Below, in pieces: positions 3,204-64,000 of a DNA stretch of 64,000 nucleotides. Source of the DNA: Eledone cirrhosa (lineage: Eukaryota); assembly GCA_964016885.1 (NCBI GenBank), contig OZ024745.1, forward strand, positions 65,906,001 through 65,970,000. The letters run 5' to 3'. How positions within the stretch are numbered: position 1 is the stretch's first letter; each line of letters opens with the position of its first letter. The translations under genes and the position numbers were made by a program. Under the pieces are notes generated by a model. It did not search any database. It was not told where the DNA came from and saw only the letters and a program-made list of their open reading frames with translations.

Positions 3204-4127
3204 TTAAGTTATTTTATAGTGAGAGAATTTAGCTTTTAGTTTGTGGTTGCAGTATAATGATCGTTCAATTCTATCGTTAAGTAGTTTGTTTTTGGATTTT
3301 AGTATGTAAAATAGCTCAAGGTTACATAACCTGCAGTACTTCAAACCACTCCGATATGCATTTGCGCTGGAAAGTATATCCCATTTTAAGGTGAACTGTT
3401 GGTTGTGTTCACGGAGTTGCCAGGTCTTGTTGGCGAGCGTGGTCACAAAACGGTGATTCTGATGTTTGATTGAGAATCGATGACGGTACCAGCGAGATTT
3501 AAACGATGTGGTGGTAGATCCGATATAATACCATTTCTGGTCGTCCGATTCAACCGTGCATTGGTAAACAATGTTGGACTTTAGGCATTCATTCTGCAAT
3601 GGACATCTTTCAGGTAGATGGCAGTTACATGCTTTGTTGTGGGTAGCGGGTATACCATGGATAGGTTGTGATAGCGGTACAGGTGGGTTGTGCAATACCT
3701 GTCTCCCATTTAGTGGTTGGGAGGCAGATATTGCGTTCTGCCCATCTGTTACTAAAATGTTTTGTTTTGTAGAGTTGCTTAATTGCCTTAAGTTAAGTTT
3801 TTTTATGTATGCTTCAAGGTTTGGTGCCGTGGAGTATGATAGTCTAATAGTTTTGGAGTTCAGAATTTTGCTGTACTTATGGGAACTAGGGAAGTGTTTA
3901 TTGATTAATTTAAAGAATGAAAGAGATAGTTTTGTACTAATCGAGGCATTAAAAATAGGATTATACCAGATATATTTTCTACAACGTGATTTATTTGGTG
4001 GTGAGATTCTATTATTAGTATGTCTGGTAGTACAGTGTGTGTGTGCTTGTGTTTTAGAAGGATCAGGAACTAAATTTCTTGAACAATTCTTCCATAACTC
4101 GTAGAGTAACTTCTTACCGTACGTCAA
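3204..4127 (-). pseudogene. PLE linker plus GIY-YIG endonuclease fragment
   Basis: Naiad-type Cys motif and GIY-YIG core; RT domain absent. Confidence 0.85.
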
Positions 4128-4207
4128 CCATATCCAGTGTAGTAATTAACCATCACTACATCTTGGATAATCCTATACCTAATAATCGCCTCCTACACAG
4201 TTGAGCA

Positions 4208-5217: not shown

Positions 5218-5362
5218 TGGTCGTTTTGGAAGCCTCACCAATGCAGATGGGTAAATCTCCGGGTAACAGAATCAGGTGAAGAGAGAGATGTAAGAGTAAA
5301 TGTAGAATGAGACGTATAGTGTATAGAGGAACGTAGGAAATATATATATTTTTATTAAAATA

Positions 5363-5438
5363 ACAGATTAAAGTTTAAGCAAAGAATTCGTGCTTTCACC
5401 CTTAACAGGATCTTCTGAAACTATGAAAATCAATCTGT
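5363..5438 (-). ncRNA. variant hammerhead (CAGAAGA core) in inverted pLTR
   Basis: same fold as 59106-59181. Confidence 0.6.
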
Positions 5439-5556
5439 GAACGCAGAAGTAAATATTTCGAAAAACGTTGCAACCGAAAGAAGACAGGAAGACGATACTT
5501 AGGTTCGTGAAAACGTTCCCTGGCAATGAACGGAAAAAAGCGAACATAACACGTCG

Positions 5557-5599
<43 letters not shown>

Positions 5600-8526: not shown

Positions 8527-8585
<59 letters not shown>

Positions 8586-9025
8586 AATATATATATATTT
8601 TAATGTGTATTTGGTGTATACGTTCGTATGTGTGCGGGTACATGTGTCGCGCGGGTTTATGTATGTGTGCGCGTCTTTATGTGCTCGTGCATATATTTGC
8701 ATGCATGGCGGGTGTTTTCGCCTATGCACGATTATGTACGTATATATTGATTTTAATAACCTTTGTCATTTTCGTTCTACTAATTTATTTACATTATCCT
8801 TAACTCTGAAGCCGAGAATCATTCGGTTTCCTAAATAGAATATTAGTCTACAACTTCATTTATACCATAAACGTGGTTTTGTCTTTGCGTGTATTTGTCC
8901 TCAATGTCCACATAATGACGTATGATCTTCGCTTTTTTCTGTTGATTGCCAGGGAACGTTTTCACGAAGAAAAGTATCATCTTCCTTCGGTTGCAACGTT
9001 TTTCGAAATATTTACTTCTGCGTTC

Positions 9026-9101
9026 ACAGATTGATTTTTTTAGTTTCAGATGATCCCTTTAAGGGTGAAAGCAGCGATTCTTTGCTTAAACTTTAATCTG
9101 T
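9026..9101 (+). ncRNA. variant hammerhead (CAGAUGA core) in 3' pLTR
   Basis: ACAGAUUGA..AGUUU-CAGAUGA-UCCC uuuaa GGGU-GAAA-GCA..UGC-UU-AAACU-UUAAUCUGU. Confidence 0.6.
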
Positions 9102-9213
9102 TATTTTAATAAATATTTGCTCTAGGGTTCTTATGCATTTCATATATTTTTATCCTTATCGAGCCCCCTTTGGATTTTAGTCTTCACATTTATTATTATT
9201 ACTATATATATAT

Positions 9214-16562: not shown

Positions 16563-16607
16563 AACGGTGCTGATGATAGCTAACAAGCTTGAAACTAGTA
16601 CATCGTT
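16563..16607 (+). ncRNA. minimal type I hammerhead ribozyme, predicted cleavage after 16600
   Basis: AACGGUG-CUGAUGA-UAGCU aaca AGCUU-GAAA-CUAG-UA-CAUCGUU; canonical core, palindromic stem III. Confidence 0.9.
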
Positions 16608-17022
16608 CCTGTGTCAGTGTTGAACAAAAAGGTGACGTGGTTGCCTTAACACCGTGCGGCATAAATTCAGGCTGTTCAGTTTGTTTACAAATGAACAAAG
16701 CGGGCGCTATAATAAGCGTCCGCTAAACTTATGCGTACATATATGTCTGTGTACCTGTATGTATATATGTATATATATATATATGCATGTTATTTTACGT
16801 CTGTATACATATATGTATGTACGTATACATACATACTTACATTTATGTAAGTGCCGTACTAAGAGTGAGAAATGAAATTTCGTTTTCATTTTATTACAAC
16901 TCATCGTTTTCGGTGCGCCTGACCGATTTAACTCACTCGATATGCAAATTAGGCTGCTCAGCCGTTAATTTTCATAAGGAAAGTATATACTTTCGAACGT
17001 TCAACTATCTGGCAGATGGGTA

Positions 17023-17067
17023 AACGGTGCTGATGATAGCTAACAAGCTTGAAACTAGTACATCGTT
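17023..17067 (+). ncRNA. minimal type I hammerhead ribozyme, second tandem copy
   Basis: identical to 16563-16607, 460 bp downstream. Confidence 0.9.
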
Positions 17068-17295
17068 CCTGTGTCAGTGTTGAACAAAAAGGTGACGTGG
17101 TTGCCTTAACACCGTGCGGCATAAATTCAGGCTGTTCAGTTTGTTTACAAATGAACAAAGCGGGCGCTATAATAAGCGTCCGCTAAACTTATGCGTACAT
17201 ATATGTCTGTGTACCTGTATGTATATATGTATATATATATATATGCATGTTATTTTACGTCTGTATACATATATGTATGTACGTATACATACATA

Positions 17296-23733: not shown

Positions 23734-23741
<8 letters not shown>

Positions 23742-23975
23742 TAAAATAACAGATTAAAGTTTAAGCAAAGAATCGCTGCTTTCACCCTTAACGGGATCTT
23801 CTGAAACTCGTTAGTTTCAGAAGATCCCGTTAAGGGTGAAAGCAGCGATTCTTTGCTTAAACTTTAATCTGTTATTTTAATAAATATTTGCTCTACGGTT
23901 CTTATATATTTGATATATATTTATCCTTATCGAGCCCTCTTTGGATTTTAGTCTTCAAATTTATTATTATTACTA
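23734..23975 (+). mobile_element. fold-back pLTR fragment of Naiad family A (palindrome 23734-23887)
   Basis: 75-bp perfect arms with 4-nt spacer; each arm carries the CAGAAGA hammerhead core; the remainder matches 59190-59283. Confidence 0.85.
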
Positions 23976-24039
23976 TATATATATGTATAATAATAATAAA
24001 ATGTGGAGAGGAAGCACACGAGTTAGGATGTATATATAT

Positions 24040-27257: not shown

Positions 27258-29949
27258 TCTTTATAGTCATGCTAAATAGGTATAATCTATATATACATAT
27301 CACTGAACTATTTTATTCAGCTTCTCATTAAAACCATTATAAAAGCGTTCTCTACAACGATTTTGATATAAACACACCATGAATATACCTACCAAGAACA
27401 TTAGATATCACACCTTAGCATTTCTCAAAAGAAATGCAAACATGAAAGCCATAAAGTTGATTGTAACATTAGCGGACATATATGATCATCAGACTTAAGG
27501 AATTGTATATGCCTTCAACAGTCAACAGACGGTGAAATATGATATATGCCTATAAGATAATAGTAATCAAAGTAAACTTCAACAACCACCCTATCTTGGA
27601 ATTCCTTCCGTCATCAACAAGAAAGCAAACATTTTAATGATTTAAGCACTGATGTAGCAAGATTACAAGACAGCAAACCGTCTTAAAGAGAATCTATAGC
27701 ATTCATTTATCGATTGTGATAAGAATGTTGCTGAACAAAAGTCAAGAAACCAATTGAAGAATAAAATTGATGCATACTGGAAGAGCATTAAATTTGTAAC
27801 ACTTGTCTTGTATACAGAAAACTTTGCTTTACGAACAGAGGAAGATTTACTGTTTTGGATATCACCACTAAATACTGTAAAACTATAAATAGATAAAATA
27901 AAAGTTTAATCCTGCTTAATGAATTAATGAATATTGATTTCATTTTGAGCAAACGCTCGAATTTCGCTCCAGACAAGGCACAATCGATTGAAAAAATACT
28001 CGTCTTATGTAACTGTGTACACTTTCTGCCAATACTATATGCAACACACACGCACACTGCCATTTCTACTACGTTTAATTCACACCACCCCTTCTTTCCT
28101 CTATTTTGTCTTTGTTCTTTTCCTATTCCACCTCCTCTCTCTCTGTTTTCTCACTTCCACTCTTTTCTTTTTCTCATTATCGTCCTCTCGACTTCTGGCT
28201 CCCTTTACGCTTTAGACCGTTCTTCTGTCTTTTATCCCTACGCATTTGTAGATAGCAGGCGTCTCTTCTTCAGCTCTGCAGCCTGCTCACATTATTCTGA
28301 AGAAAATCAAAGGTTTTAATTTCTCAATTTTTCTAGCGTCAACATGTACTTTTTACGTGCTAAGCTCGTTGTCAATATATTTATAGTCGATTTTTCCTTT
28401 TTGCAATTATGTTTGATTTTGTCGAAAGACACCTGTACATTTTCTTTCATTCTTTGTTTTGTTATCGTTTCACATGCCTCTTACCAACAGAGCGGTTCCC
28501 CAATCTATTGTGTAAACTCACTGTTCATGTTCAAAGTTGCATTCTGGCAAAGTGGTTGAAGAGGTAAAGATACAGCTCTCTGTTTGCATTTCTGCTGATA
28601 CAATAAATATATATATGGTGTCTATCTTATGAAATAGAAGAAGGCAAAACACGATACAAAATGCACATATTCATCTAACTTAATGAATATGCCTTTCTTA
28701 CATTAGTCTAAGTTTGCAGTTTGTTTTCCTCTCATTGAATCTTAGTTGGTATGATTGGTTTCAGTTCATGGTGGATATATTTTATTTTATTTTATAAGAA
28801 GAATGGCATCATCATTTCTGGGACAAAAGTTTAACATAAAATATAGAAATTTGGAATTTAATACGAATTTAAACAAGACCCTTTCTTTTAACGCCGAACC
28901 ACTTCTTCCAACTTTCTCACCTTCAAACTAAATGAGTATTGATTTCTAGAATTAGGCTAAAGCCACTGATTTCAGTGAATGACGCAGCGTAAAAGTGAAT
29001 TAAATTCCATCAATAGTTAACTAGAACTTATTTATACACCCAGAAATACTTTAAAGCAAACAAATGATCTCAACGTGATTAGAGCTCAGAACGTAAAGTA
29101 TTATAACTAAATAACACAAGGTATTAAATGCTACACTCTACAGAATGTGCTAGTCACCACCCTTTGAAGCTTAATGAATATTAAAATATTAAAGGCATCT
29201 AACCGTATGCCTTGACGAACAAATTACATAAGGAATTAGAGTTGTGTGTAAGTATCATATTATTAGCTAAATCAATGAACGTAATAACAGGATTAATAAT
29301 CTGTAAATTTCTAAATGAGTTTCGCGATGAAAGGAACTAAAGAACACAAAACCAAAAACATTGAATCTTGAATGAGAATTATTAATTATCGATCTAATTC
29401 GCTTTCAAGGAAGCGAAATTCTGTGGGAATTATTCAAACATTGTTTGTTTTTTTTGTATTTTGCTCCTTCACAAGTTTTCATAAATGTTGTCTCATGTTT
29501 CCATCTAAAACAAACATGTAAGCTAAAATACTAAACGATTAATGTAATCAAAGAAGTTTAAGAATGTTTTTTTTGAACTAACAATAATGAATCAATTCTA
29601 GCGAGTGCAAAACAGGTTACACGTAAAAATAGCAAGAACTAATCGCAGTAATATACCAGGAGTCTGTAAAAACACTACCAACATCAATCACCAACAATAA
29701 GAAGAGTATTAGAATTAGACAACAACATTGCTAGAAAGATAAAGGATGAAAAATACAGCAATATTTGTAGTATAATCAATAATTAGTAACAATAATATCA
29801 ATGGAAGAAGTAATAAAAAATTTAATAAGATCAATAATATCCATAGGGTTAATAACGGAGGTTTCAAGCATGCCGATCTAATTTTCTATTGCAACTAGCA
29901 GTAGAGGCCTCATCATCACAACAATAAAAACCTACTGTAAACTATAAAA

Positions 29950-31277
29950 GCAACTACCAAGTAATATTAAGACAATAACATGAACTACCAAGTAATATTA
30001 TGACAATAACAGCAACTACCAAGTAATATTAAGACAATAACAGCACACTACCAAGTAATATTAAGACAATAACAGCAACTACCAAGTAATATTAAAACAA
30101 TAACAGCAACTACCAAGTAATATTAAGACAATAACAGCAACTACCAAGTAATATTAAGACAATAACAGCAACTACCAAGTAATATTAAGACAATAACAGC
30201 AACTACCAAGTAATATTAAGACAATAACGGCAACTACCAAGTAATATTAAGACAATAACGGCAACTACCAAGTAATATTAAGACAATAACAGTAACTACC
30301 AAGTAATATTAAGACAATAACAGCAACTACCAAGTAATATTAAGACAATAACAGCAACTACCAAGTAATATTAAGACAATAACAGCAACTATCAAGTAAT
30401 ATTAAGACAATAACAGCAACTACCAAGTAATATTAAGACAATAACAGCAACTACCAAGTAATATTAAGACAATAACAGCAACTACCAAGTAATATTAAGA
30501 CAATAACGGCAACTACCAAGTAATATTAAGACAATAACAGCAACTACCAAGTAATATTAAGACAATAACAGCAACTACCAAGTAATATTAAGACAATAAC
30601 AGCAACTATCAAGTAATATTAAGACAATAACAGCAACTACCAAGTAATATTAAGACAATAACGGCAACTACCAAGTAATATTAAGACAATAACAGTAACT
30701 ACCAAGTAATATTAAGACAATAACAGCAACTACCAAGTAATATTAAGACAATAACAGCAACTACCAAGTAATATTAAGACAATAACAGCAACTACCAAGT
30801 AATATTAAGACAATAACAGCAACTATCAAGTAATATTAAGACAATAACAGCAACTACCAAGTAATATTAAGACAATAACAGCAACTACCAAGTAATATTA
30901 AGACAATAACAGCAACTACCAAGTAATATTAAGACAATAACGGCAACTACCAAGTAATATTAAGACAATAACAGCAACTACCAAGTAATATTAAGACAAT
31001 AACAGCAACTACCAAGTAATATTAAGACAATAACAGCAACTATCAAGTAATATTAAGACAATAACAGCAACTACCAAGTAATATTAAGACAATAACAGCA
31101 ACTACCAAGTAATATTGAGACAATAACAACAACTACCAAGTAATATTAAAACAATAACAGCAACTACCAAGTAATATTAAGACAATAACAGCAACTACCA
31201 AGTAATATTAAAACAATAACAGCAACTACCAAGTAATATTAAGACAATAACAGCAACTACCAAGTAATATTAAAACA
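29950..31277 (+). repeat. 31-bp minisatellite, about 43 copies (CAACTACCAAGTAATATTAAGACAATAACAG)
   Basis: head-to-tail units, no spacers. Confidence 0.97.
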
Positions 31278-31409
31278 AAACGACAGCTTTAATATCATAG
31301 ATATTTCACATACATACATGACTATACAAGCTCCTTAAATTGACTTCAGGCCGTATTTTATCGATTGTCACCATAATGGAATTTCAACACAATAAAGACG
31401 AAACTAAAT

Positions 31410-31410
31410 A

Positions 31411-31479
<69 letters not shown>

Positions 31480-31584
31480 GCTGCTGCTGTTACTACTGCC
31501 AGCACTGTTGCTACCACCACTACTATTACTACTACGACGAAAACCACCACCACCACCACCACCACCACCACCACCACCACCACC

Positions 31585-31633
<49 letters not shown>

Positions 31634-31650
31634 TTACTACTACAACAACA
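31410..31650. repeat. compound (TAC)n/(CAC)n trinucleotide repeat
   Basis: direct observation. Confidence 0.95.
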
Positions 31651-33129
31651 ATGACGATTTCTGATGATGATACTGTTGACGGTGATTTCTTTTTTATCCA
31701 CCACTCCTCGAACAGATGAAGGAAGGCTCGCGTGGTTTTGCAAGAAACAGGTATGTCACCCTCATTCTCTCCCGTGTACGAGCAATAGCGTTTCTAGCAA
31801 ACGATGGGTTTTGATCAGAGTTTGAAATATTTTCGTTTAATACAGTGCATGTCTACGAGAAGTATACATATCTGTTGTGTGTAATGTTCATTTATTTGTA
31901 AGCTAGCATTATTTCCTTCATTTTCTACAGTCTGAACGTCTATGTTCAAATATATTTATCATAGCTTTTTAATATTTAGGCATTGATTTATTTTGTTTGA
32001 CAGTATTCTTTCGGAATCTAGGTTTAACTCAGTATTTGATTAACTTCTCGTCTCTGCAACCGACTATTTGAAATTCTGTTTACTGTATATTACCATTGTC
32101 TGTTGACCATACACATACTTTATCTCTAAGGTCTAAATAAACCGATGCGATTTGTCAAAGTCTACATTGGTGCGTTTCAGAAAACCGGGTAGTTGGAACT
32201 GCAAGAGAAGATGTTCGAAGCTTTTACATCCTTTTAGTTATCGGCTCGTCCCACACCATCACAGCGAGCGATTAGATGCGGTGATTAATAAGAATATTTC
32301 GAGTGACGCATTAAAAGCGAAAATGACGAATACAACAAACAATTTCTTTACGCAAAACACCAATATTAGATAAGAGAGGGCAAAGTTTATTCGATGAGTG
32401 AGTATTAAAACGCCGTGACGTAAATAGCTCTGGCACATCGGATAGCAATGTGTCCGTGCTATTTGATTCCAGACAAATGTGTGCAATTTCCAATCAGTCC
32501 TTAGCCTAAATATTTGAAGTAATGATTAAATGAAGACGATGGAATTTAATGCGCATCTTAACGGCCAGTTGCAGTTCTTGAGAGAAGAGTTTGAGTACTA
32601 AAAAAAAAAATATATATATTTATATATATAAACGAAACGAAAATAATAACAGCTGGTTTTGATGGTGTGCCCTATAGGTGTAATGAATATATTCTAGACT
32701 TCTTCGTTCTTGGCTAACGTCTGTCACAACTGAAAGCAGACTGTAAGGGATTCCAAGCTGTAATAATTGGATTCTGGTGGAAAAACGCAAAGAAGAGAAA
32801 ATTAACATCAGTTTTCTGGTCAACCTTTCAAACTGTGGATAAAATTCTAAAGTAAGCCTGGTCTTTTCTTTTTTAATATGATCCGGAACGAAATGTCTCA
32901 AAAGCGATACCGTGAGTTGCATCATAAAACTAAATTCGCTCCAAAGATTCTATGTAATCGATCGCTCTGCTAGAAATATGCCCCCCCCCCCCGCGCCCCA
33001 AGAAAAAACAGCAACAAACAAAACCAATTTCCTATCTTAGAAAAACACATTGGATGATGTGTTCTTCGGTAGAATGTCGGACAAAAGGGTTGTTCATAAT
33101 GTGGCTAAAACACTCTTGCTGTGGGCAGT

Positions 33130-40220: not shown

Positions 40221-43200
40221 CTAAGGCGGGTAAAATTCCCGAGATCCATGGACGAGTTCTCTCCAGCGGTCTCTGTCCCTCATTATCGCTGCCATATCCT
40301 GCATCTCCAACAGACCAGTGTCTGTCCTTAGGGCATCAACATATGTTAACCTTGGTCTTCCTCTTCTAGTGTGTTCATGTAGGGGCTCCCAAAGGAGCAC
40401 AGAGCGCAATGTCAACTCTGGATGTCGGTGAGCATGTCCAGCCAACCTCAGTCTCCTCTGTGTCACTTTTGAGCTGACTTTTGGGATGCTCCCATACAGC
40501 TCTGAGTTTTTCATCCTCAGTGTATACTGATTAATGTTCAGAGCCATCCTCAGCATTCTCGTGTAGCACCCATCCACAATCTGAGTGAGTCTCTTGGTCA
40601 GTGTCCAAGTCTCAGACCCATACAGCAGCACAGACTCCACTACAGCAATGAAGAGGCGGATTTTCAGGTCTCTACGAAGGTCCGACTTCCACACCGATCT
40701 CAAGCTGTGACACGCCGCCCAGGTCTTGCTCTTCCTCTCAACCACATCATCTTCCGTATTCCCAATCTTTGCTCCCAAATACAGGAAGTCCTCAACCAAT
40801 TCCAGCGGCTTCCCGCCTACATTAGTGATCCCCTCTGGCTTCTCAACATTCTCTACCAGATATTTTGTTTTAGTCTCATTCATTCTCAGCCCCACACTGA
40901 TCGACACAGTCTCAACCTCCCGCATCAAATCTTCTGCCTCCTTCACTGTATTTGTCACCAAAACTATGTCGTCGGCAAATTCAGCATCCGATACCTTTTT
41001 CGCCCCAACTCTCCTGCTCTGAGCCGGTGCTACAGTAAAGCCAGTGTCCTGGTGTTTCTCCAGTGCAAGGCGCATACAATAGTCCACTACGATGATAAAA
41101 AGGTAGGGAGCCAATGTATCTCCCTGGAGCACTCCAGCCAGTATCTCAAAGAACTCTGTCATCCCATCAGGTGTAATGACTTAGGCTTTGGTGTTGGTGT
41201 AGAGCAGTGATATCAAGTCCACTATCCTCTTGGGGATTCCATAAGCCTGTAAGATCTTCATCAGGCAGTAACGGTCCACAGAATCAAAGGCCTTCCTAAA
41301 GTCAATGAAAACCATGACCGCAGGAAGGCACTTTGCTCTAGCTCCCTCTAATATCCTCCTCAGCATCAGGATGTAACTGGTGGTTGATCTACCCTCTCTG
41401 AAGCCGTTCTGGTTGTCCCTGAGCTTCTTCTCCATCTCAGGCTGGATCCTGTTAAGAATCATCCTGTTGAGGGTCTTTGCCACAAGTGACGTCAGTGAGA
41501 TCCCCCGGTAGTTGTTGGTGTTAGAGAGATCTCCCTTCTTTGGCACTGGGACGATGTTACTGATGCTCCACTGATTCGGGGCAACTCCTTTCTCCAGTGC
41601 CCCGTTACAGAACCCCAGGATGATATCATCAAAATCACACCTCTTCATCACCTCTGATGCCACTCCATCTTCTCCATGAGCCTTGCCCTCCTTGATCTTC
41701 TTCTTGGCTCTCTGAAGCTCCTCTCTGGTGAAGGGCTCTGTCTCAACATCCAGTTCCTCAAACAGCCGCCTGATCTCCCCAGTGCTCTGGGCTGTGGAGG
41801 GTGGCTCTCCTAGTAGGGTCCTAAAATGGTCTAGCCATTTCCTCTTCCTATCCTCGGGCCCCGTTCCCTGGATCTGACTCGAACACCTTTTCTTCCTCCC
41901 TGTGATCTCGTTGATGATCATCCAGCTCTCCTTACATCCAGATCTGTCAACCGCTCTCTCCACACTTCTGATCTTCTCTATCAGTGCCTCCTCTCTGACC
42001 TCAGTGTAAGCGGTACAGAGCTCTTCCCTCATCACCTCCACAGTCACCATCCTCTCCTCCGTAGGATCAGCATAGAATTGGTCCCTGGCAGCTTTCAGGT
42101 GTTCTCTGGCTGCACACACTTTTGGGTTTGCAGAGCTGACGTGCTTCCCTTTGTTCTTTTTCCTCGGCACCAGGGTTTCACTTGCTTTCGCCACTGCATT
42201 GGTGAAGTGCCCGCACCTCCTCGTCACACTCTCCTCAGTCCATCCAATCTCTCTCTCCTCTGACTCTCCACACAGAGCACTAAACCTGTTTCTCACTTCC
42301 ACTGTGAACCTCTCCTGTAGCTTATCATCTTCCTTGAAAGCTCCCCAGTCATAGATTGTTCTCCGGGGCTGAGCCTTGCTCTTTCTTAAGCTCACGCGGA
42401 CCTCACTCATAACAAGCCGGTGGTCACTACCCAGTGTACTGAAATAGCTGTATGGTTCCGTGTTCAGAACACTATTCCGCCACATTTTCCTCACCAGAAT
42501 GAAATCAATCTGGGACTTGGACAGGTGCATATCTGAGATGTAGGTCCACATCTTCCCCAGATTCTTCCTAAACCCTAGGTTGGTCGCCATCAAGTTCGCC
42601 TCCAGCAGGGTGTCTCTCAGTAGTCTTCCATTTCAGTTGGTGTTGTTATGGAAGTACCAGCAAGGATCTTCACTGCCCTCCTTACTCAGATGTGCATTGA
42701 AGTCCCCCAAAACAAGCAGGATATTGTGTGCCTGAGTGGTGTTGACAGCTCTACACACCTCCTCATGGAACTCCTCGGCATTCACATCACTGTCCCCCTC
42801 GGTTGGACTATAGGCTGAGATGACTGTCAGTCTTGGGTTTCCATTGAAGGTCACCCTCAACACTCGTGGGGAGATAGGCATTATTTCCCTCACCAACAGA
42901 TTGGTTTTTGCACTGAACACAAAACCCACTCCTCCTACTGCAGCATTTGTTGTGTTCTTCACTGCCGATGTAGTGATGAGCTGGCTCTTCCTCCCGATCA
43001 TCACACTCCTCACGAGCTCATTGTGTAGAATCCTGTGTTCTTGGATCGCAAGTATCTGTATACCACTCTCCTCGAACAGATGTCCCAACTCCTCTCTCTT
43101 CTCCAGCGTTCGAATAGTCCTCACATTCAAAGTGCCCATTTTGATGGCTCTTCTGCAGGACAAAACTGCATTCTTTATATTTGTCTCAGAGACAGCTGAT

Positions 43201-43530
43201 CCATCATCCACTGGCCCTCTCTGTGGCTCTAAGCCAGCAGAGTCATAACGACCAGGCTGCTCCTTGACAGTGTAATTAGGGGCTCTAACCCTAGGGCTGT
43301 TAGATCGACTCTCCATATTTCTTTTCAATGGCTGACAATACCTTACCGGCGCCACTCGAATAAGGTAGTTATTTAACCCATAAATGGAGCCCTAACAGGT
43401 ACTACCACCCCGGGCCAGGGCAGACCTGGGAGTCATGACAACTAAGGGGTAACTCCACATTCCCCACATCTCCTGAACTCCCGAACTGGAGCCTTGCCAC
43501 TGGATGTAGTTTAATGTCATACCCAGGAAT
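40221..43530 (-). mobile_element. near-full-length RTE-clade LINE (APE plus RT), one frameshift (about 42630) and one premature stop (41181-41183)
   Basis: GTLNVRT/QEHR/SAYSPT/GDFNAH/SDHR endonuclease; FIDFRKAFDS, GVLQGDTLAPYLF, FADD, LYGSETWTL RT; (TA)n at both ends. Confidence 0.93.
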
Positions 43531-43548
43531 ATATATATATATATATAT

Positions 43549-46500
43549 TCAGGACTCTTCCAACCCTACCACAAACCCAACGAGAACTTAAACTATGTCA
43601 ACGCAAAATCGAACCACCCTAGAATAGTCACTAACGGTATTACCAAAAGCGTCTCGAGTAGAATTTCAGGACTATCTTCCAATGAAGATACCTTAATAGG
43701 ATCTCGAATTACTATAATAGCGCCCTGGAACGCGCGGGGCATAGCGAGGGAATCTCATTCAAACGTCCATTAAATAGTAGAAGCAACATTGCCTGCAATA
43801 GCTTACGCCTAAATAATGACACTCGAGTTAACCGCAGGCGGGAAACGAGGGAGGATTTATATAGACTTCATGTTGTATTGCCGCCTAGTCCCAATGATGT
43901 TGGTACCAATGGAAACATCCACCCAAGTGCTAACACGGGGTCTGAGCAACGTAACGCCAGCGGAAACTATAATGGTAACCTTAATTGTAGAACCGATAAA
44001 ACTACCGCTGAACGCAGTTTGGAACAAGGGTCGAGTAGGGGGAATAGGGACAGGTGTAGCAGACGCATAGTGGATATAACACTGGCTATCAATGGTAATC
44101 CCAATGGCTGCACGGGGGTACACCGCCCTAGAGACTTGGGACGATTCCGAACACAATCGTGACACCCCAGGACACTATCGACCCACAGGAAATTTCCAGT
44201 TACATTAGATCAATAACTACTAGGGAGACAGGTAACTCTAATATAGTTAGTAAGAAGAAGAGGCATCGGACCAGAAAAGTCCTGTGGTATAATCCCCCTT
44301 ACTCCACTGGCCTGACTACTAGTATAGCTAAGCTCTTCTTTAGAGCCTTAGACAAATGCTTCCCTAGATCGCATAGATATTATAAAATATTCAATAGGAA
44401 TACCATCAAACTGTCCTACTCCACAACTAGTAACATAGCTCAGAATATAGCTAAGATGAATTATAATAGACTTAGGACAGCGCAAGAGGGAATTAGGCAT
44501 GGCAGGAACAATGACAGCTCTATGGAGGAACTATCTCATACACGTGAGGCAAGTCGGATCCCCAACCCCAGGGAATTTACCCATAGAGCAGACAGCAGGA
44601 AATGAGACCCGACTCCTAAGGTACCGTGGTCCATCTGGAACTACCCAGGTCGACATCAAAAAATGTAACTGCAGAAGCACCGCCACCTGCCCCATGGCTG
44701 GAAAGTGCCTTACCAAAAACATAGTCTACGACTGTAAGGTCTCCACTCCTGATAGAACCTTTAGATATGTTGGGGCAACTGCCACGGAATTTAAGGATAG
44801 ATGGTATAATCACCACCATACCTTTAATAGATTAGATTAAAAAAATAGCACGGCACTTTCTGAATTAGTCTGGAAGCTTAAACATCAGAATATAGAGCAC
44901 TCCTTATCCTGGTCCATAGTTTGCTCAGCCCAACCTTATAACGGCAGCACTGAGGTCTGCAATTTATGTATAGCTGAAACCTTTAATATTATTAGAGGCG
45001 GCCCCCTATTAATTAATAGGAGAGCTGATTTTTTCAGAAACTACCAACATAGACCCTCGAAAACCTTCCGCAGGATTTTTGGAAGGTAACCTACCACTAA
45101 CTCCTGCCTCTCTACTTTAGCCATAGAGTTCTCTCAATGAACAGACAGTCACACACTCATATAGTTAGACGGCTAAGATTGTTTGCGAACTTACAAACGA
45201 TACTCGACCTGTTTCCACGGAGTTCTCACAGCTGAGTGCACTTTTTTAGAATACCTAGCTAGTAAATAGTTAGATTGATTACACACTTAGAATACCTAGT
45301 TAGTAATTGATTGCACACTCAGGCATGACCGATTACGCGCACCTAACTTTACTTTAAGATACCCTAACCATTGAGTTCTCTCAGTTGGGATATAGCTAGT
45401 CATATTACACACTTAGTTAGGTCCGATTACGCTCTCTTTACATAACTCTACACACAGTACCCGTTTCCTTTAGACATTGAGCTCCCTCAATTACGACTTT
45501 CACGTTCCTACCGACTGAACACTACACTAGGTTTTGATCCGTGATCATCTAACCATGGAGAAATCATTGTTACGGATTGAACAATATTACTTACACACTA
45601 TTAGTGGGCCTACACACATCCTCTGGATTTTACTACCGTGTTTTTTTTACTTCACCTTCTGTGTTGGGTAACACACCACCAGCACTCAAACAACTATCTT
45701 AAAAGTTCATTGGCCCATATGACTGGAATAGCACTTAGTGACGCATTTACCCAATACCCAACCCTACACGGAGCGCCTTGCTGGCCTACACTGCGGTTGC
45801 TTGCATGCACGGATATGGTGACTCGGATTCTCAATGGGACAGCGGTACATACTGAGTTCGATATGAGCTGATTGCTTGCTCTTCACATGGCTGTGTGTAT
45901 ACCCAGACATACCCTTTTTTGGACGATTCGGATGTGTATATACTATAACATACACTTGAAGATATGGATGTTACAATTAAATCTATACACGTATAGCAGA
46001 ACACTGAACTGAACTTATTTGCTTGTGTGTGTGTGTGTATGGGCGTTGGTTAACCCAATATTTCCAATTTGCATCGGTATATTGAGATTTGACCAGTATA
46101 GCATCTGTTGTTTTGTGAACTAACTTTCGGTGAATGCTGTGTTGGTACATTCTTATATTTGTTTCCTTGTATTTTTTTCTCTGACATCGCTTCGGTGGGT
46201 GTGAGAGTATGTGTGTACCCACCCACACTAACTGTGACCTTGTATAATTCTACAGGTATGATACTGTGTTGATGTGTGTATGTATATGTATATATTTCTT
46301 TCTTTGACTTCGAACCGGTGTATTTGGGTGTGCAGTGTGTGTGTACCCACTCACATTAACTATATCCATACAGATTTGATTGATGTCCAGCGTTTTTTGC
46401 AGTGATAGAAATCCGACAACTTTTTTGACCTTAACTGAAGTTATTAGCAGTCGCCGTGTCTCTGACTGGTGTGTTTTCATATGAGGGAATGAATTCTGTG

Positions 46501-49402: not shown

Positions 49403-51614
49403 CTTATTTGGAAATCTATTCTGTAGCCTTTTTAGAGAATTTTATGACAAGCAAAACATAATGGTCAAGAGAAATTGGATGGGAGAATTGTTCTGGTTCA
49501 GTGAATATGGTTAGTTCACTGGGGTGTCAGAATTCAGATTTTCTATTGAAGTAAAGAAAGTAAAGATATGTATGTTTATTTGTGTGCTTGTGTGTGTGTG
49601 TGTGTGTATTGGAAGATGATTCTATTAGTAGAAATGGGGGAGGGAGTTGTGTGCGTGTGAATATGTGTGTGTGGGGGGGAGTATGTTAAGATGGAGAGAA
49701 TATATATATATATATATATATTTTTTTTTTTGTGTGTGTATATATGTGTGTAGGAAAGTGATTCTATTAGTAGAAATGGGGGAGGAAGTTGTGTGTGTGG
49801 AGGTGGGGGTTGTTATGTGTGTGTATGGGTGTTATGTGTGTGGGAGTATGGTTAGCATGTTAAGATGAAGAGAATATATATATATTGTGTGTGTGTGTGT
49901 GTGTAGGAAAATCATTCTTTTAGTAGGAATATTTTTGAATGAACATATTTTCCTTACTTATTCGTATTTGTTCTGTTGTATTGTCAGTGCAAACGTATAT
50001 TAAGGTTTATTTAGTTCGGGTTTTTATTTTCTAAATAGAAGGTGTTATGTGTGTGTGTATGTGTCTGTTTGTATGGTTAGCATGTTATGGTGTTGACATA
50101 ATGTATATTAAACCATATTTAATGCTGGTCTATATTTTTGAATAAACATATTTTCCTTATTTATTCGTATTTGTTCTGTTGTATTGTTAGCGCAAAGGTA
50201 AAATGGGAAGACTTGGAATTTGGGTGTCTTATTACTTGCGCATATGTCTAGATATGCGCTTAGTGGTGTCTGTCTCGTGGTTGGATCTCGTAATTGTTGG
50301 CGATGATCTGTCATTCTGTTTCTGAGTGTGATTTTAGTTTGTCCTATATAATCTTCATTGCATCCTTTACATTTAATGGCATAAATCAAATTTTTTGATG
50401 AGCAAGTGAAGTGAATTTTTACAGTAAAATTTTGTCCTGATTTAAATGTATACGTGTTGCCTTCAATGAGGTGAGTGCAGGTTCCACAATTAGAGCGACC
50501 ACATTTTTTGACACTTGGTTGTGGGTTTGTGGTAGGTAATTTAGCATTGGTGAGTAATGTTTTTAGTGATTTCGGTTGTCTTTTGCTTTTGATTATTTTG
50601 TGTGTTTCAAGGGCTTTTTTCATTCTTGGGTTTGTTTTAGTAGTGGGATGTTCTTGTGAATAGTGTGGTAAGCTTCCGCATTTCTTGGGTTGTGTGTTGA
50701 AATATATGATAGAATATTGGATGTAGCTTGAATTTGTTTCTGTTTTCGTAATTCATCAATGGCTATTGCTTTAGCCCTTTCTATTCCATTATTTATTATT
50801 AATGGTGGGTACTGTCTTTCGAGCAGAATTTCCATTAATTCTTGAAGTCTTTTATTTCGCGTTTCATAATTGGAGACAATTGTGCAAATTCTTCTTGCTA
50901 GGTTAAAAGGAATGTTCGTCTTCGTGTGCTTTGGATGGTTGGAGGTGAATAGCAGGTATTGTTTGGAATCTGTTGGTTTGTAGTGTATGTCAGTTTCAAT
51001 ATTTGTGTCTTTTTTTAAGATTAAGATGTCCAGAAATGGGAGTTGATCTTGGCTGTATTCCATTGTGAATTGGATGTGGTTATTGACGCCGTTTATTAAG
51101 TTTTTGAAATCCTTCAGTTGGTCGAGTGTGTGGGACCAAAGAATGAGACAATCATCCAAGTAGCGTTTCCAATTCTCTGATAAATATTTGTGGAAGTTCA
51201 ATCCGTATTTTGATTTGTACTGTTCATATATCTGGACTTCTAAGTATGCCATGAGTAAGATGGCATAAGTTGGAGCGGCTTTTGTACCCATCGCAGTCCC
51301 CGATATTTGCTTGTAAGTACTGCCATCGAAATCAAAAAAGTTGTTCTGCAAGATGAATTTTATTACCTCGGTGATGAAGCTTTTTACTATTCTGTCAGGT
51401 ATCTCATTGGGATATTTCTCTAGCCAGAATCCTATTGCTTCTACTCCGTATTGGTGTGGGATCGTTGTGTAGAGATTCACTACATCGAAAGACATAATAA
51501 TAGTGCCGTTGTTGACATGTTTGGGGATGTGGTTTAAGATAAACATGTCAACGACACTATTATTGTGTCATTCGATGTAGTGAATCTATACACAACGATC
51601 CCACACCAATACGG

Positions 51615-58702: not shown

Positions 58703-59105
58703 TCAGTTTTCAGCCAGAAGTGTGGTATTTAAACTCCCTAGGTAATAAAATCTGGCGACAAACATGTTCTCCTTACCAAAAAAAGAAGACATAGATCATA
58801 TCAACATCCTTACACACTTAAATATAAATGCATGAATATATAGAAATGTATAAATGCATAGCTATATACATACGTAAATGTATTTATCTATGTATGTATG
58901 TATGTAGATGTATATATATATATAACCTCTTTTATACCATAAACGTGGTTCTGTCCTTGCACGTAATTGTTTTTCACCGCTCCTATTAATGACGTATTAT
59001 TCGTTTTTTCCCGTTCTTTGCCAGCGAACGTCACCATGAACCAAAGTATCGTCTTCCTGTCTTCCTCCGGTTGCAACGTTTTTTGAAATATCCAGTTCTG
59101 CGTTT

Positions 59106-59181
59106 ACAGATTGACTTTGTTAGTTTCAGAAGATCCCGTTAAGGGTGAAAGTAGCGATTCTTTGCTTAAACTTTAATCTGT
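59106..59181 (+). ncRNA. variant type I hammerhead (CAGAAGA core, CUU site), 5' pLTR
   Basis: distal stem I ACAGAUUGA/UUAAUCUGU, 7-nt bulge, proximal stem I AGUUU/AAACU, stem II CCC guuaa GGG, GAAA, stem III GUA../..UGC. Confidence 0.65.
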
Positions 59182-59325
59182 TATTTTAATAAATATTTGC
59201 TCTTCGGTTCTTATATATTTGATATATATTTTCCTTATCGAGCCCTCTCTGGATTTTAGTCTTCAATTTTATTATTATTACTATTTGGCTCCTTCGGTTG
59301 AGCACTCTACTGACTTATATTCATC

Positions 59326-61455
59326 ATGCAGAAACAACATCTGAATATTTCTACAAAGAACATACCCGTACCAAGCAGGAAAACATACCTAAAACTCCTG
59401 ATACAGAAAACAGACGCGTTCATTAAAAGGTTGCGTTGGCGTGCCTTTTACTTCGATAATCCGCGAAACGCATACAACAAGCAGGACAAATTTGGATTTA
59501 AAACCTATAATAACCCTCCGTGGAACCCAGCATTGCTACCCTTCGAAAATGATGTCTTGGAACTCATTCGGAGTATCAAATTTCGGAATAGGAGCAATTC
59601 CTTCCAGCAAGACCTGAAGAATAGAATTCGTTCTATTAAGGATTCTAACGCCGTGCACGTCCATTCCGACAAAACTGGCAACCTATATCAAGTGGAGCGC
59701 AGTACTTACCATCAACTACTACATAATGCTGTAACTAAGGATTACCGTAAAACTAATCGGTGTGTCATCAATGAAATCAACGATGCTGGGTTTAAAATCA
59801 CATCTGATCTCAACATCCTGGACCGGACCGAACCCCTGGACCCTATCTCTCCCCACATTACCCTGAAAGCCCACAAATCCAATTTTCCGAACAACCCCTC
59901 TATTCGGCTTATTAACCCTACGAAGTCCGATTTAGGTAGACTTAGTAAAACGATTCTTGATAGAATTATACCTGAAATTAGAAATTTGGCCCCTCTCGCA
60001 CTGTGGAATAATTCTTTCGCGGTGATTGATTGGTTCAACGGCATATGTAACAAGGAACATTGCCGTTTTATCCAATTCGACATCAACAATTACTACTCCT
60101 CCATCACTTTACCACTTCTCCTTAGAGCTATCAATTTCACTAATACACTCACAGTGGTTAAGGATTTCGAAGTTGATGTCATCCTTAATGCCCGAAAGTC
60201 GGTGATTAATTTCGACGATTCTATTTGGATTAAAAAATCCAATAGTACCCCATTCGACGTGAGTATGGGCGCCAGTGACTCTGCGGAGGTTACTGATCTT
60301 ATTGGCCTTTTCCTTCTTTTCTCTATCAAGGACGAATTCCCCTACGCGGGCGGTGGTTTGTACCGTGACGATGGCCTTTTGACCATGACTAAGTGCGGAC
60401 CTCGTGCTTGCGACAGATTCAGAAAAGAACTCACAGCCTTCTTTAAAGGCTTCAACCTCTCTATACAGGTTGAGGCTAATCTCTCGGTCGTTAATTACCT
60501 CGACGTTACCCTCAATTTATTGAATGGGTTGCATTACCCGTATAGAAAGCCGAATGATACGCTTAATTACATAAGTAAGCATTCCAACCATCCTGCCAGC
60601 ATAACCAAGAACCTGGTAAAAAACGTTTCGTTGAGGCTTTCCCGTCTTTCCCCCAACGAGCGCATTTTCAACGACCATTCCACTTATTACAATGAAGCTC
60701 TTGCTCGAAGTGGATTTGTCGAGAAGGTAGCATATACAGAGTACGAGAATAGACCTAGAAGAAATAGATCCCGCCGCATTTGTTGGTTTAACCCACCATA
60801 TAATATGGAAGTGGCCACACCATTAGCTAAGATATTTCTTTCCCTTATTACGAAGCATTTTCCCCCTACACATAAATATAGTAAAATTTTTAATAGAAAC
60901 ACTATTAAAATTTCTTACTCAACGACTCCTAACCTTGCACATAACATCACAGCTTCAAATTTAGCTAAAATACCTAGCCGTAGGAACACGTGCAACCCTG
61001 TAGTTAGTACTAACTGTAATTGTAGGAATCGGGCTGATTGTCCCCTATCCGGGAAATGCCTCTCTAGTAACATTGTCTACATATGTAAGGTTGTAACACC
61101 CACGTCCTGTTGGGCCTACATAGGGTTAACCGCCAATAGTTTCAAGCAGCGTCTTTACATGCATACCCATTCTTTTCGTTACCCTCTAAGAAGGAATATG
61201 ACGTCACTTTCAGCTTATATCTGGAGTCTAAAAGACAACTACACCCAATATAAGTTACACTGGGAGATCCTAGCTAGGGCTAGATCGTATAACGGAAATA
61301 AAAGACCATGTGACCTCTGCCCCGCTGAGGCCCTGGAAATACTCTACGCCACAGACCACATCTTAAACAAAAAATCTGAGGCAATTTCGGCTTGTAAACA
61401 TAAATTGCACAAAACTTTCCTGTATTACAGCCCTACGTTATACCCTAACGGATAG
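59326..61455 (+). CDS. PLE reverse transcriptase / GIY-YIG endonuclease, 709 aa, uninterrupted
   Basis: KNIP..KRLRWRA..FGFK N-terminus, FDINNYY, MGASDSAE, YRDDGL, YLD, WFNPPY, CNCRx4CPLSGKC, NIVY..YIG..FKQR, CDLC. Confidence 0.95.
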   Translation: MQKQHLNISTKNIPVPSRKTYLKLLIQKTDAFIKRLRWRAFYFDNPRNAYNKQDKFGFKTYNNPPWNPALLPFENDVLELIRSIKFRNRSNSFQQDLKNRIRSIKDSNAVHVHSDKTGNLYQVERSTYHQLLHNAVTKDYRKTNRCVINEINDAGFKITSDLNILDRTEPLDPISPHITLKAHKSNFPNNPSIRLINPTKSDLGRLSKTILDRIIPEIRNLAPLALWNNSFAVIDWFNGICNKEHCRFIQFDINNYYSSITLPLLLRAINFTNTLTVVKDFEVDVILNARKSVINFDDSIWIKKSNSTPFDVSMGASDSAEVTDLIGLFLLFSIKDEFPYAGGGLYRDDGLLTMTKCGPRACDRFRKELTAFFKGFNLSIQVEANLSVVNYLDVTLNLLNGLHYPYRKPNDTLNYISKHSNHPASITKNLVKNVSLRLSRLSPNERIFNDHSTYYNEALARSGFVEKVAYTEYENRPRRNRSRRICWFNPPYNMEVATPLAKIFLSLITKHFPPTHKYSKIFNRNTIKISYSTTPNLAHNITASNLAKIPSRRNTCNPVVSTNCNCRNRADCPLSGKCLSSNIVYICKVVTPTSCWAYIGLTANSFKQRLYMHTHSFRYPLRRNMTSLSAYIWSLKDNYTQYKLHWEILARARSYNGNKRPCDLCPAEALEILYATDHILNKKSEAISACKHKLHKTFLYYSPTLYPNG

Positions 61456-62365
61456 CACGATCTATACGTGGATATTTACGTCTTGATGTGGGAGCTAAGT
61501 ATATGTTTTGTTTATTCCTTTACTTTTTGCATAGGTAAGTATATATTACCCGTATGTTTTGTGAAGGTATGTATACCTTCTCGTACGTATATTTGACTGT
61601 TTTGGCGTATAATTTTTACATATTCTGGTATTTAGGGCTTGGTTATGTGTATATGGGAGTTTTGCGTCTGCGTGAGTATGCAGGTTCGTACGTATGGTGG
61701 GTGCGTGTATATGTGTACTTCTTGTTTTAGTTGACTTATGTCTCCGAACCTTCATGTATTTATTTGTAGGTATGTGTGTGCGCTTGTTATATACGTATTT
61801 ATTTACTTATATACGTTTATATAATTATTTATTTATTTGTACACAAGCATACACACATACACATATTTATATGTGCGTGGTTTTGTATACCTATGGTAAG
61901 GTTTTGCGTATGCTTGTGTATGTACGTATCTGTTTGCGTGTATGTATTTATTTGTTCCTATTACTTCTGTATTGTATTTATTTACTTTGTTCTTAACTCT
62001 GTAGCGGAGATTCATTCGGTCTCCTAGTTAGATTTTTAGTCTACGACTTCTGCTATACCATTTACGTGGTTTTGTCTTTGCACGCTATTGTTCTCCACGC
62101 TCCACATATGACTTATTATCTTCGTTTTTTCGTTCATTGCCAGAGAACGTCTCTATGCACCACTTAGAGAACATTAGTCTACGACCTCTTTTATACCATA
62201 AACGTGATTCTGTCCTTGCACGTAATTGTTTATCACCGCTCCTATTAATGACGTATTATTCGTTATTTCCCGTTCTTTGCCAGCGAACGTCACCATGAAC
62301 CAAAGTATCGTCTTCCTGTCTTCCTCCGGTTGCAACGTTTTTTTGAAATATCCAGTTCTGCGTTT

Positions 62366-62441
62366 ACAGATTGACTTTGTTAGTTTCAGAAGATCCCGTT
62401 AAGGGTGAAAGCAGCGATTCTTTGCTTAAACTTTAATCTGT
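62366..62441 (+). ncRNA. variant type I hammerhead (CAGAAGA core, CUU site), 3' pLTR
   Basis: same fold, 3260 bp downstream of the 5' copy. Confidence 0.65.
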
Positions 62442-62443
62442 TA

Positions 62444-62509
<66 letters not shown>

Positions 62510-63871: not shown

Positions 63872-63914
63872 ACGTTGCTGACGATAGCTAACAAGCTTGA
63901 AACTAGTACAGCGT
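63872..63914 (+). ncRNA. minimal type I hammerhead ribozyme, predicted cleavage after 63908
   Basis: ACGUUG-CUGACGA-UAGCU aaca AGCUU-GAAA-CUAG-UA-CAGCGU. Confidence 0.9.
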
Positions 63915-64000
63915 TCCTTTGTCAGTGTTGAACAAACGAGCAACGGCGGTTGCTAGACACTACGGCTTAATACGGGATGTTTGTTTACAAACACACCGAG

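What the first reader, a model, noticed from the sequence alone, without database searches (positions are those of the whole stretch)
58925..62450. Intact Naiad-type PLE whose pLTRs carry a non-canonical hammerhead (U4->A, U10.1-U11.1, CUU site)
Seen: an uninterrupted 709-aa ORF and near-identical pLTRs. Each pLTR folds as a full type I HHR with bulged extended stem I, but the core is CAGAAGA instead of CUGANGA and the predicted site is CUU. A4 is present in all 8 copies in the window, old and young, while free position 7 varies (A/U) and stem III shows C-G to U-G. Known: U4 is part of the consensus core and common natural sites are GUC, GUA, AUA and AUC. Inference: either a new active core variant or a deliberately slow or non-cleaving fold used by a live element; cuts at both pLTRs would give a 3260-nt unit RNA.
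Basis: partly seen in the sequence, partly recalled or inferred. Interest (0 to 1): 0.8.

Follow-up and report, generated by a model that had tools for sequence, protein, structure and literature searches.

The report
Jumping gene with altered hammerhead ribozyme
A very abundant Penelope-like jumping gene (Hydra group, not Naiad) carries a hammerhead-shaped RNA motif in which one normally fixed catalytic-core letter (U4) is A in about 21,000 genomic copies; the motif's stems and core are conserved while its loops drift, so the fold likely still matters, but it likely cuts slowly because the element appears to be copied from uncut RNA.

Summary
The ORF, both pLTRs and the A4 hammerhead core are real. 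"Naiad" is wrong: the RT lies before the endonuclease, with DKT, CxCx5C, CxxC and CxH motifs, which is the Hydra clade, where hammerheads are normal. U10.1-U11.1 (14 of 26 published Hydra motifs) and U17 (10 of 26) are ordinary. Only A4 and, less so, C16.2 are odd.

A4 is fixed: 21,011 genomic matches against 230 with another base, and in three subfamilies up to about 25% apart. Between them 0 of 57 stem/core columns change, against 6 of 19 loop and 53 of 259 flanking columns; no compensatory pair.

New here: most copies with a non-native base before 59122 start exactly there, 51 of 79 with an extra G, which points to a capped transcription start at the first base of stem I. Copies almost never start at the predicted cut (1 of 96), but neither do those of a canonical-core sister family, so this does not measure activity. 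The 3260-nt unit RNA is unsupported.

Verdict: new variant of PLE hammerhead, likely attenuated; cleavage untested.

The parts
58925..59196 (+). 5' pLTR, preceded by a (TA)n target stretch; 59195-59196 is the first of two 3' termini used by genomic copies
   Evidence: 42 of 76 copy ends at 59195-59196
59106..59181 (+). type I hammerhead fold, 5' copy: distal stem I 59106-59114/59173-59181; 7-nt bulge 59115-59121; proximal stem I 59122-59126/59168-59172; core CAGAAGA 59127-59133; U10.1 59134; stem II 59135-59137/59143-59145; U11.1 59146; GAA 59147-59149; stem III 59150-59154/59162-59166; U17 59167
59128..59128 (+). A at core position 4 (U in the consensus); also the centre of a 7-nt quasi-palindrome where fold-back junctions form
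   Evidence: 21,011 vs 230 matches; 669 fold-back junctions centred here
59122..59122 (+). inferred capped transcription start, first base of proximal stem I, in an initiator-like context
   Evidence: 79 of the first 100 of 2,157 rows start exactly here, 51 with an extra G (counted by eye; script check on 30 loci); control position 59128 shows no G excess
59167..59168 (+). predicted self-cleavage site CUU|A (62427|62428 in the 3' copy); cleavage untested
   Evidence: hammerhead topology; 1 of 96 copies starts within 59165-59170
59197..59284 (+). PLE 'tail' between the two 3' termini (inferred reverse-transcription start sites); also 5' UTR
   Evidence: 27 of 76 copy ends at 59284-59285; loose (TA)n ends at 59196 and 59284 in run X1
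59326..61455 (+). 709-aa Hydra-clade PLE protein: RT (RLRW 35, DKT 115, QFDI 250, MGA 314, YRDD 346), thumb (WFNPP 487), CxCx5C linker 564, C-terminal GIY-YIG-type endonuclease (YIGL 598, CxxC 662, CxH 690)
   Evidence: criteria from PMC8557442; its Hydra alignment read by eye; 471 homologs at E<=1e-30; no Pfam hit
61456..62183 (+). 3' UTR, with a 78%-identical older duplicate of the pLTR start at 62036-62162
62184..62450 (+). 3' pLTR, followed by (TA)n
62366..62441 (+). type I hammerhead fold, 3' copy (A4 = 62388); the only copy with the full extended stem I in a transcript starting at 59122

Best explanation
This is an intact Hydra-clade Penelope-like retrotransposon whose pLTR hammerhead has U4 replaced by A throughout the family and is likely an attenuated ribozyme: the fold is likely kept by selection, is predicted to cut slowly as naked RNA, and the element is likely copied from uncut RNA. 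Shown: domain order and motifs; A4 fixed in three subfamilies; stems and core invariant while loops change; two 3' termini (59196, 59284); a 5'-end cluster at 59122 with an extra G; copies spanning the cut site. Inferred: transcription starts, capped, at the first base of proximal stem I, so the 5' hammerhead of the mRNA lacks the distal stem I and bulge and only the 3' (read-through) copy can form the full fold. Reverse transcription starts about 29 or 117 nt downstream of the cut site and must cross it, so fast cleavage would destroy templates and a slow core is tolerated. Starting at the cap-proximal copy gives the many short pLTR fragments; two such cDNAs annealing at the quasi-palindrome around position 4 give the fold-back junctions, and the same event could have first turned U4 into A (speculative). 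Residual or protein-assisted cleavage, as reported for the Anolis element PAc, or use of the fold as the protein-binding site next to the RT start, would explain why the rest of the core is kept.
For: Fixation: (no variant at 1% or more listed at 59127-59133 in 4 runs of contigs). Selection on the fold: 0 of 57 stem/core vs 6 of 19 loop/bulge vs 53 of 259 outside columns differ among subfamilies A, B, C (95, 46, 15 copies; Fisher p 1e-4 and 2e-5; p 4e-4 and 3e-4 without the 14 columns fixed by the search anchor); subfamily C is about 75% identical in the ORF. Slow core expected: in a type III hammerhead all single mutants of the CUGA turn had low activity and only the C3-G8 swap was rescued (PMC9901934, passages); natural U4C is slow in vitro yet supports viroid infectivity (PMC3088659, passages). 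Cleavage dispensable: PAc hammerhead mutants insert normally, unprocessed RNA is the main template, and its hammerhead needs protein (PMC11167929). Cap signature: G 51, A 19, C 9 at 59122 against G 8, A 23 at 59128 (p 2e-5); an untemplated G is linked to cap copying in L1 (PMC9341517, passages). RNA starting at 59122 folds poorly as a hammerhead (-5.6 vs -9.4 kcal/mol, stem Ia pairing 0.01-0.04).
Against: No cleavage rate was measured. The lack of copies starting at the cut is not specific to A4: a sister Hydra family with canonical CUGA also shows 0 of 100. All other catalytic bases are unchanged across subfamilies, which fits real catalysis equally well. No compensatory base-pair change was found, and the core lies at +6 to +28 of the inferred start, so DNA-level promoter constraint could add to the conservation. 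The mutagenesis data come from a type III ribozyme and I saw no U4A-specific number. Part of the extra Gs can be templated by the inverted arm. Energy models ignore tertiary contacts.
Confidence: 0.5

Rival explanations
1. A fully active natural core variant: tertiary contacts between loop II and the bulged stem I, or the element's protein, make up for A4, and the full 3' copy cuts read-through or tandem transcripts (possibly followed by circularisation) at a normal rate.
For: All other core bases, H17, 5-bp stem III, extended stem I and the last A of loop II are conserved in three subfamilies; Perreault et al. report several active natural core variants and suggest tertiary rescue; the full 3' copy is within about 2 kcal/mol of the predicted minimum; copies spanning the cut are also compatible with a re-ligated circle (model in PMC4209133).
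Against: CUGA-turn single mutants were low-activity and not rescued by second mutations; capped RNAs evidently survive uncut through the 5' copy; 0 of 26 published Hydra motifs and none of the hammerheads in 16 of 25 outgroup loci has A4.
Confidence: 0.25
2. A catalytically dead relic: the sequence is conserved at DNA level (initiator and internal promoter around +1 to +60) or as a linear protein-binding site, and the hammerhead fold no longer forms.
For: The start site lies inside the motif; no compensatory change; the hammerhead is not the predicted minimum fold; no Rfam hit; Naiads thrive without canonical hammerheads (PMC8557442).
Against: Changes and indels fall in the bulge, loop II and loop III and just outside distal stem I, and spare both arms of distal stem I at -16 to -8 and +52 to +60, a pattern that follows the RNA fold rather than a promoter.
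Confidence: 0.2
3. A4 was selected for a second role, as a second transcription start (CA) or as a 3' splice acceptor (TTTCAG after a pyrimidine run).
For: U4-to-A creates both motifs (sequence); in D. virilis Penelope the intron ends at the 5' end of helix I (PMC4209133).
Against: No extra-G excess at 59128; copies starting at 59122-59130 share no common upstream exon or leader, apart from one chimeric repeat family.
Confidence: 0.05

Closest known systems
Hydra clade of C-terminal EN+ PLEs (Craig et al. 2021, PMC8557442), e.g. Hydra-1_Amil, Hydra-1_Obim, Penelope-1_HM
   Same: Single ORF of about 700 aa, RT then GIY-YIG, RW[K/R], DKT, CxCx5C, CxxC, CxH; (TA)n insertion; type I hammerhead near the 3' end; U10.1-U11.1 and U17 common
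   Different: Core CAGA instead of CUGA and C16.2 instead of G16.2 (26 of 26 listed rows have CUGA and G16.2); 3.5 kb with a longer 3' UTR; at least 36,583 exact 23-nt matches; hammerhead differs from that of Hydra-1_Obim
Naiad PLEs (same paper)
   Same: pLTRs, inverted truncated copies, tail, (TA)n preference
   Different: Naiads have an N-terminal endonuclease, a CxC linker to RT, DKA, IFD and CCHH, and lack canonical hammerheads; domain order and DKT here exclude them
PAc, Poseidon element of Anolis (Frangieh et al. 2024, PMC11167929)
   Same: Two internal RT start sites bounding a tail; uncut RNA as template; no RNA ends seen at the hammerhead cut
   Different: Other clade; canonical C3/G8 core tested, protein-assisted; ORF starts inside the hammerhead; no start site inside stem I reported in the sections read
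Natural hammerhead core variants (Perreault et al. 2011, PMC3088659): U4C, U3-A8, A6C, U15.1-A16.1, U10.1-U11.1
   Same: Single departures from the core in otherwise complete folds; U4C slow in vitro but sufficient in vivo
   Different: U4A not named in the passages and section read; those are rare individual motifs, this one is fixed in more than 21,000 copies of an expanded family
Minimal PLE hammerheads and animal retrozymes (PMC4209133; bioRxiv 10.64898/2026.07.22.740005)
   Same: Type I motif in the pLTR; low intrinsic activity proposed
   Different: Here stem III is 5 bp with a 7-nt non-palindromic loop, so no dimer is needed; autonomous element

Membership tests
Naiad PLE | GIY-YIG endonuclease N-terminal to RT | tested here: not met
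   RT motifs at 250-346, YIG motif at 598 of 709
Naiad PLE | DKG modified to DKA | tested here: not met
   DKT at 115
Hydra PLE | C-terminal GIY-YIG endonuclease, single ORF | tested here: met
   (motif level; Pfam gave no hit)
Hydra PLE | RWK and DKT motifs | tested here: met
   RWR at 37-39 (RWK in the same-genome sister family) and DKT at 115
Hydra PLE | CxCx5C linker; CxxC and CxH in the endonuclease | tested here: met
   CNCRNRADC 564, CDLC 662, CKH 690; matches the paper's alignment by eye
Hydra PLE | Insertion in (TA)n; pLTRs, tail, inverted truncated copies | tested here: met
Hydra PLE | Monophyly with named Hydra RTs in a tree | not tested
   reference proteins were only readable in the paper's supplement; loci at 40% identity carry a hammerhead nearly the same as that listed for Hydra-1_aMil
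Hydra PLE | Canonical hammerhead in the pLTR | tested here: not met
   fold present, but core has A4; described for the clade as a shared trait rather than its definition
Type I hammerhead ribozyme | Three stems around a junction, stem I open | tested here: met
   pairings possible in all subfamilies; conservation follows the stems; not the minimum-energy fold
Type I hammerhead ribozyme | Core C3 U4 G5 A6 N7 G8 A9 / G12 A13 A14 A15.1 / U16.1 H17 | tested here: not met
   all met except U4 (A); CUU obeys the NUH rule (PMC8495972, passage)
Type I hammerhead ribozyme | Compensatory base-pair changes in the stems | tested here: inconclusive
   stems invariant among subfamily majorities, so none to count
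Type I hammerhead ribozyme | Site-specific self-cleavage after N17 | not testable with these tools
   no assay; no RNA holder listed; the genomic truncation test does not discriminate

The most novel reading that the evidence does not exclude
A retrotransposon family that reached tens of thousands of copies runs on a hammerhead with A4, a core that mutagenesis predicts to be crippled, and starts its capped mRNA at the first base of the ribozyme's stem I. One sequence thus gives a disarmed 5' copy and a complete 3' copy that only the element's own protein switches on: a naturally tuned, protein-gated ribozyme with a new core, whose A4 arose from the element's own fold-back junction chemistry.
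Probability: 0.2. Interest if true: 0.75.

Novelty: new variant of a known kind. Interest (0 to 1): 0.52.

Why it matters
What hammerheads do in Penelope-like elements is open: they are nearly universal, yet one in vitro study found cleavage dispensable. This family is a natural experiment. It expanded hugely with a core change predicted to slow catalysis while keeping the fold, so one revertant pair, with and without the protein, separates 'cleavage' from 'scaffold'. If it cleaves well, the hammerhead consensus and the search descriptors (all built on CUGANGA) miss a class of motifs. The cap footprint in genomic copies also gives a way to map PLE start sites from DNA alone, and it places this one inside the ribozyme.

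Tried and rejected
Naiad label: rejected.

U10.1-U11.1 and U17 as oddities: rejected. CUU is not unique in this genome: another repeat has canonical CUGA with CUU (L282).

U4 revertant subfamily: 1,437 matches of a looser U4 pattern looked like one, but 22 of 30 loci examined are inversion junctions at position 4, 2 are truncated copies, 6 are unrelated, and 0 have the native upstream pLTR.

Truncation at the cut as an in vivo read-out: 1 of 96 and 8 exact fold-backs at the cut against 669 at position 4 (searches counted by eye among 36 loci), but the canonical sister family gives 0 of 100, so it does not discriminate.

Second start or splice/trans-splice site at A4: no G excess and no shared leader.

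No RNA holder listed; the runs laid are contigs of unknown kind, and the low-depth runs X5 and X6 say nothing on other species. Pfam: no hit. Rfam: no hammerhead hit. Viral contigs: no relative. A covariance model from outgroup hammerheads was dropped because the automatic alignments were out of register in stem III.

Literature: searches for 'U4A' with hammerhead and core, 'CAGANGA', core variants found no report of a natural U4A; the library lacks most subscription papers, and three papers asked for by id were not held. Figures S6 and S7 of PMC3088659 (active and inactive variants) are images whose content I could not read and may bear on novelty.
Full report
Observation. The ORF is open for 709 aa from ATG 59326. 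The two pLTRs are 97.8% identical and lie in (TA)n. Each holds a type I hammerhead pattern with core CAGAAGA, U10.1-U11.1, a 5-bp stem III and a CUU site. All 8 window copies have A4. The fold is not the predicted minimum: -13.0 against -15.1 kcal/mol for the 3' copy and -11.0 against -18.1 for the 5' copy, whose T59152 favours another fold. T59152 is a minor variant (C in 98% of depth). Rfam finds no hammerhead here, nor the canonical ones elsewhere in the window.

Clade. Craig et al. 2021 (PMC8557442; abstract, passages and supplement parts read) define Naiads by an N-terminal endonuclease and DKA, and the Hydra clade by a C-terminal endonuclease, RWK, DKT, CxCx5C, CxxC, CxH and (TA)n targets, with canonical hammerheads. 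This protein has RWR, DKT, RT motifs at 250-346, CNCRNRADC, YIGL, CDLC and CKH: Hydra clade. No tree with named references was built. In the paper's File S2 all 26 Hydra rows have CUGA and G16.2; 14 have U10.1-U11.1 and 10 have U17 (counted by eye). Among 25 outgroup loci (the latter titled as bacterial MAGs, likely host DNA), a scan that allowed any base at position 4 found CUGA hammerheads in 16 and no CAGA core; two weak non-CUGA parses were set aside as chance. A sister Hydra family in the same genome has canonical CUGA and GUA. So A4 is the real oddity, C16.2 a lesser one.

Fixation. In the 3.0-Gb genome the exact core pattern matches 21,011 times with A4 and 230 times with another base (first 100 rows: G 40, U 33, C 27, by eye). 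A looser U4 pattern gave 1,437 matches, but 22 of 30 loci examined are inversion junctions at position 4 and none is a full-context revertant. Even among the 14 U4 loci, 7 are truncated at about 59122 rather than full copies. Contigs of four runs list no variant at 1% or more at 59127-59133.

Selection on the fold. 156 of 157 copies spanning the motif were sorted into subfamilies A (95), B (46) and C (15), mostly by bases outside it; C is about 75% identical to this element in the ORF. Column majorities differ at 0 of 57 stem and core columns, 6 of 19 loop and bulge columns (plus indels there) and 53 of 259 outside columns (p 1e-4 and 2e-5; 4e-4 and 3e-4 without the 14 columns forced by the anchor used to find C). 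Many A and B copies were found with core-anchored patterns, but the sample anchored only on the 3' strand shows the same core. There is no compensatory change, so the evidence is conservation, not covariation; for the 13 core columns alone it is weak.

Ends of copies. The 3' ends fall at 59195-59196 (42 of 76) and 59284-59285 (27 of 76), as with the two RT start sites and tail of PAc (PMC11167929; passages and second half of the main text read). Of 96 copies anchored on 59168-59190 (from the first rows of 36,583 matches), 1 starts at 59165-59170, 14 at 59131-59164, 19 at 59119-59130, 1 at 59084-59118, 17 at 59020-59083, and 44 run further. A search for a non-native base before 59122 gave 2,157 matches; of the first 100 rows 21 are full-length variants and 79 start exactly at 59122, with G 51, A 19, C 9 (by eye; script on 30 loci agrees). 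At the control position 59128 the truncated rows show G 8 and A 23 (p 2e-5). An untemplated G is associated with copying of the cap (PMC9341517, passages). Some Gs may come from the inverted arm, but copies abutting (TA)n show it too. I infer a capped start at the first base of proximal stem I, 204 nt before the ATG with no upstream ATG. No RNA data confirm it. The 30 sister-family loci examined show no comparable start cluster.

Mechanism. A transcript from 59122 carries a 5' hammerhead without distal stem I and bulge, predicted to fold poorly, and a complete 3' copy. RT starts downstream of the cut site and must cross it; starts near the cap give the short pLTR fragments that dominate copy number (depth falls by more than an order of magnitude after 59293). 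Two cDNAs ending near the cap can anneal at the 7-nt quasi-palindrome centred on position 4, which explains 669 exact fold-backs there against 8 at the cut. The same flip is seen in the sister family, where one arm gains A4 (L327/L328), so it may be how A4 arose; this is speculation. The scarcity of copies starting at the cut does not show inactivity, because the canonical sister family gives 0 of 100.

Expected activity. In comprehensive mutagenesis of a type III hammerhead all single and double mutants of the CUGA turn were low-activity except the C3-G8 swap (PMC9901934, passages; no U4A value seen). Natural U4C is slow in vitro but supports a viroid, and U10.1-U11.1 is a known variant (PMC3088659, passages and section 8). 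Metazoan PLE hammerheads are slow in vitro (PMC4209133, parts 1-2 of 4), and PAc's needs protein and is dispensable for insertion. I therefore rank: attenuated ribozyme or scaffold 0.5, fully active variant 0.25, dead relic conserved for DNA-level reasons 0.2, second start or splice role 0.05.

Novelty. No report of a natural U4A core turned up in the searches named under Tried and rejected; subscription papers and unreadable supplementary figures could hold one. Other papers opened (bioRxiv 10.64898/2026.07.22.740005 part 1 of 5; PMC5993326, PMC6155905 and PMC8495972 passages) added background only. The scan's index has nothing for this genome and one note on a different, published U3-A8 variant elsewhere. 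Verdict: a real, selected, family-wide core variant in a known kind of element, less surprising than a hammerhead in a Naiad would be, but a sharp test case for what PLE hammerheads do. Interest 0.52.

Noticed in passing
window 3204-4145 (-); L253-L282: Fragment of a second, young Hydra-clade family (many 784-codon open frames, 95-99% identical) whose canonical CUGA/GUA hammerhead has an insertion of about 80 nt in loop II; 365 exact anchor matches in the genome.
   Followed up: partly
window 16564-16610, 17024-17070, 63872-63918 (+): Canonical type I hammerheads (CUGA, U10.1-U11.1, GUA) in non-coding palindromic repeats with (TA)n ends, likely fold-back remnants of another PLE; missed by Rfam at gathering score.
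   Followed up: no
L282 595-650: Another repeat with a canonical CUGA hammerhead, GAAA tetraloop and a CUU site, in head-to-head inverted copies.
   Followed up: no
window 5348-9205: Older, broken copy of the same family (subfamily B; 85% DNA, 74% protein identity) with an inverted 5' part; its hammerhead keeps A4 with U7.
   Followed up: partly
window 23734-23976: Head-to-head pair of short pLTR fragments joined at 59119/59122-equivalent positions, a twin-primed product of the cap-proximal RT start.
   Followed up: yes
L379, L400, L401: About 10 of 100 rows share one upstream sequence joined at A4: a composite repeat that carries pieces of this pLTR and has multiplied on its own.
   Followed up: partly
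window 43528-45068 (+): Broken third Hydra-like element (41-51% protein identity), next to an RTE-like LINE at 40221-43391 (-).
   Followed up: no
window 50108-51567 (-): Broken PLE of another type (RT and GIY-YIG with CxxxxCxxC linker, Neptune-like by recalled motif).
   Followed up: no
L361-L378: Hydra-clade PLE genes with canonical hammerheads lie in contigs titled as bacterial MAGs of invertebrate symbionts; likely host DNA in those bins.
   Followed up: partly
window 29892-31700: A 31-nt tandem array (41 copies listed) followed by a 9-12-nt period array.
   Followed up: no
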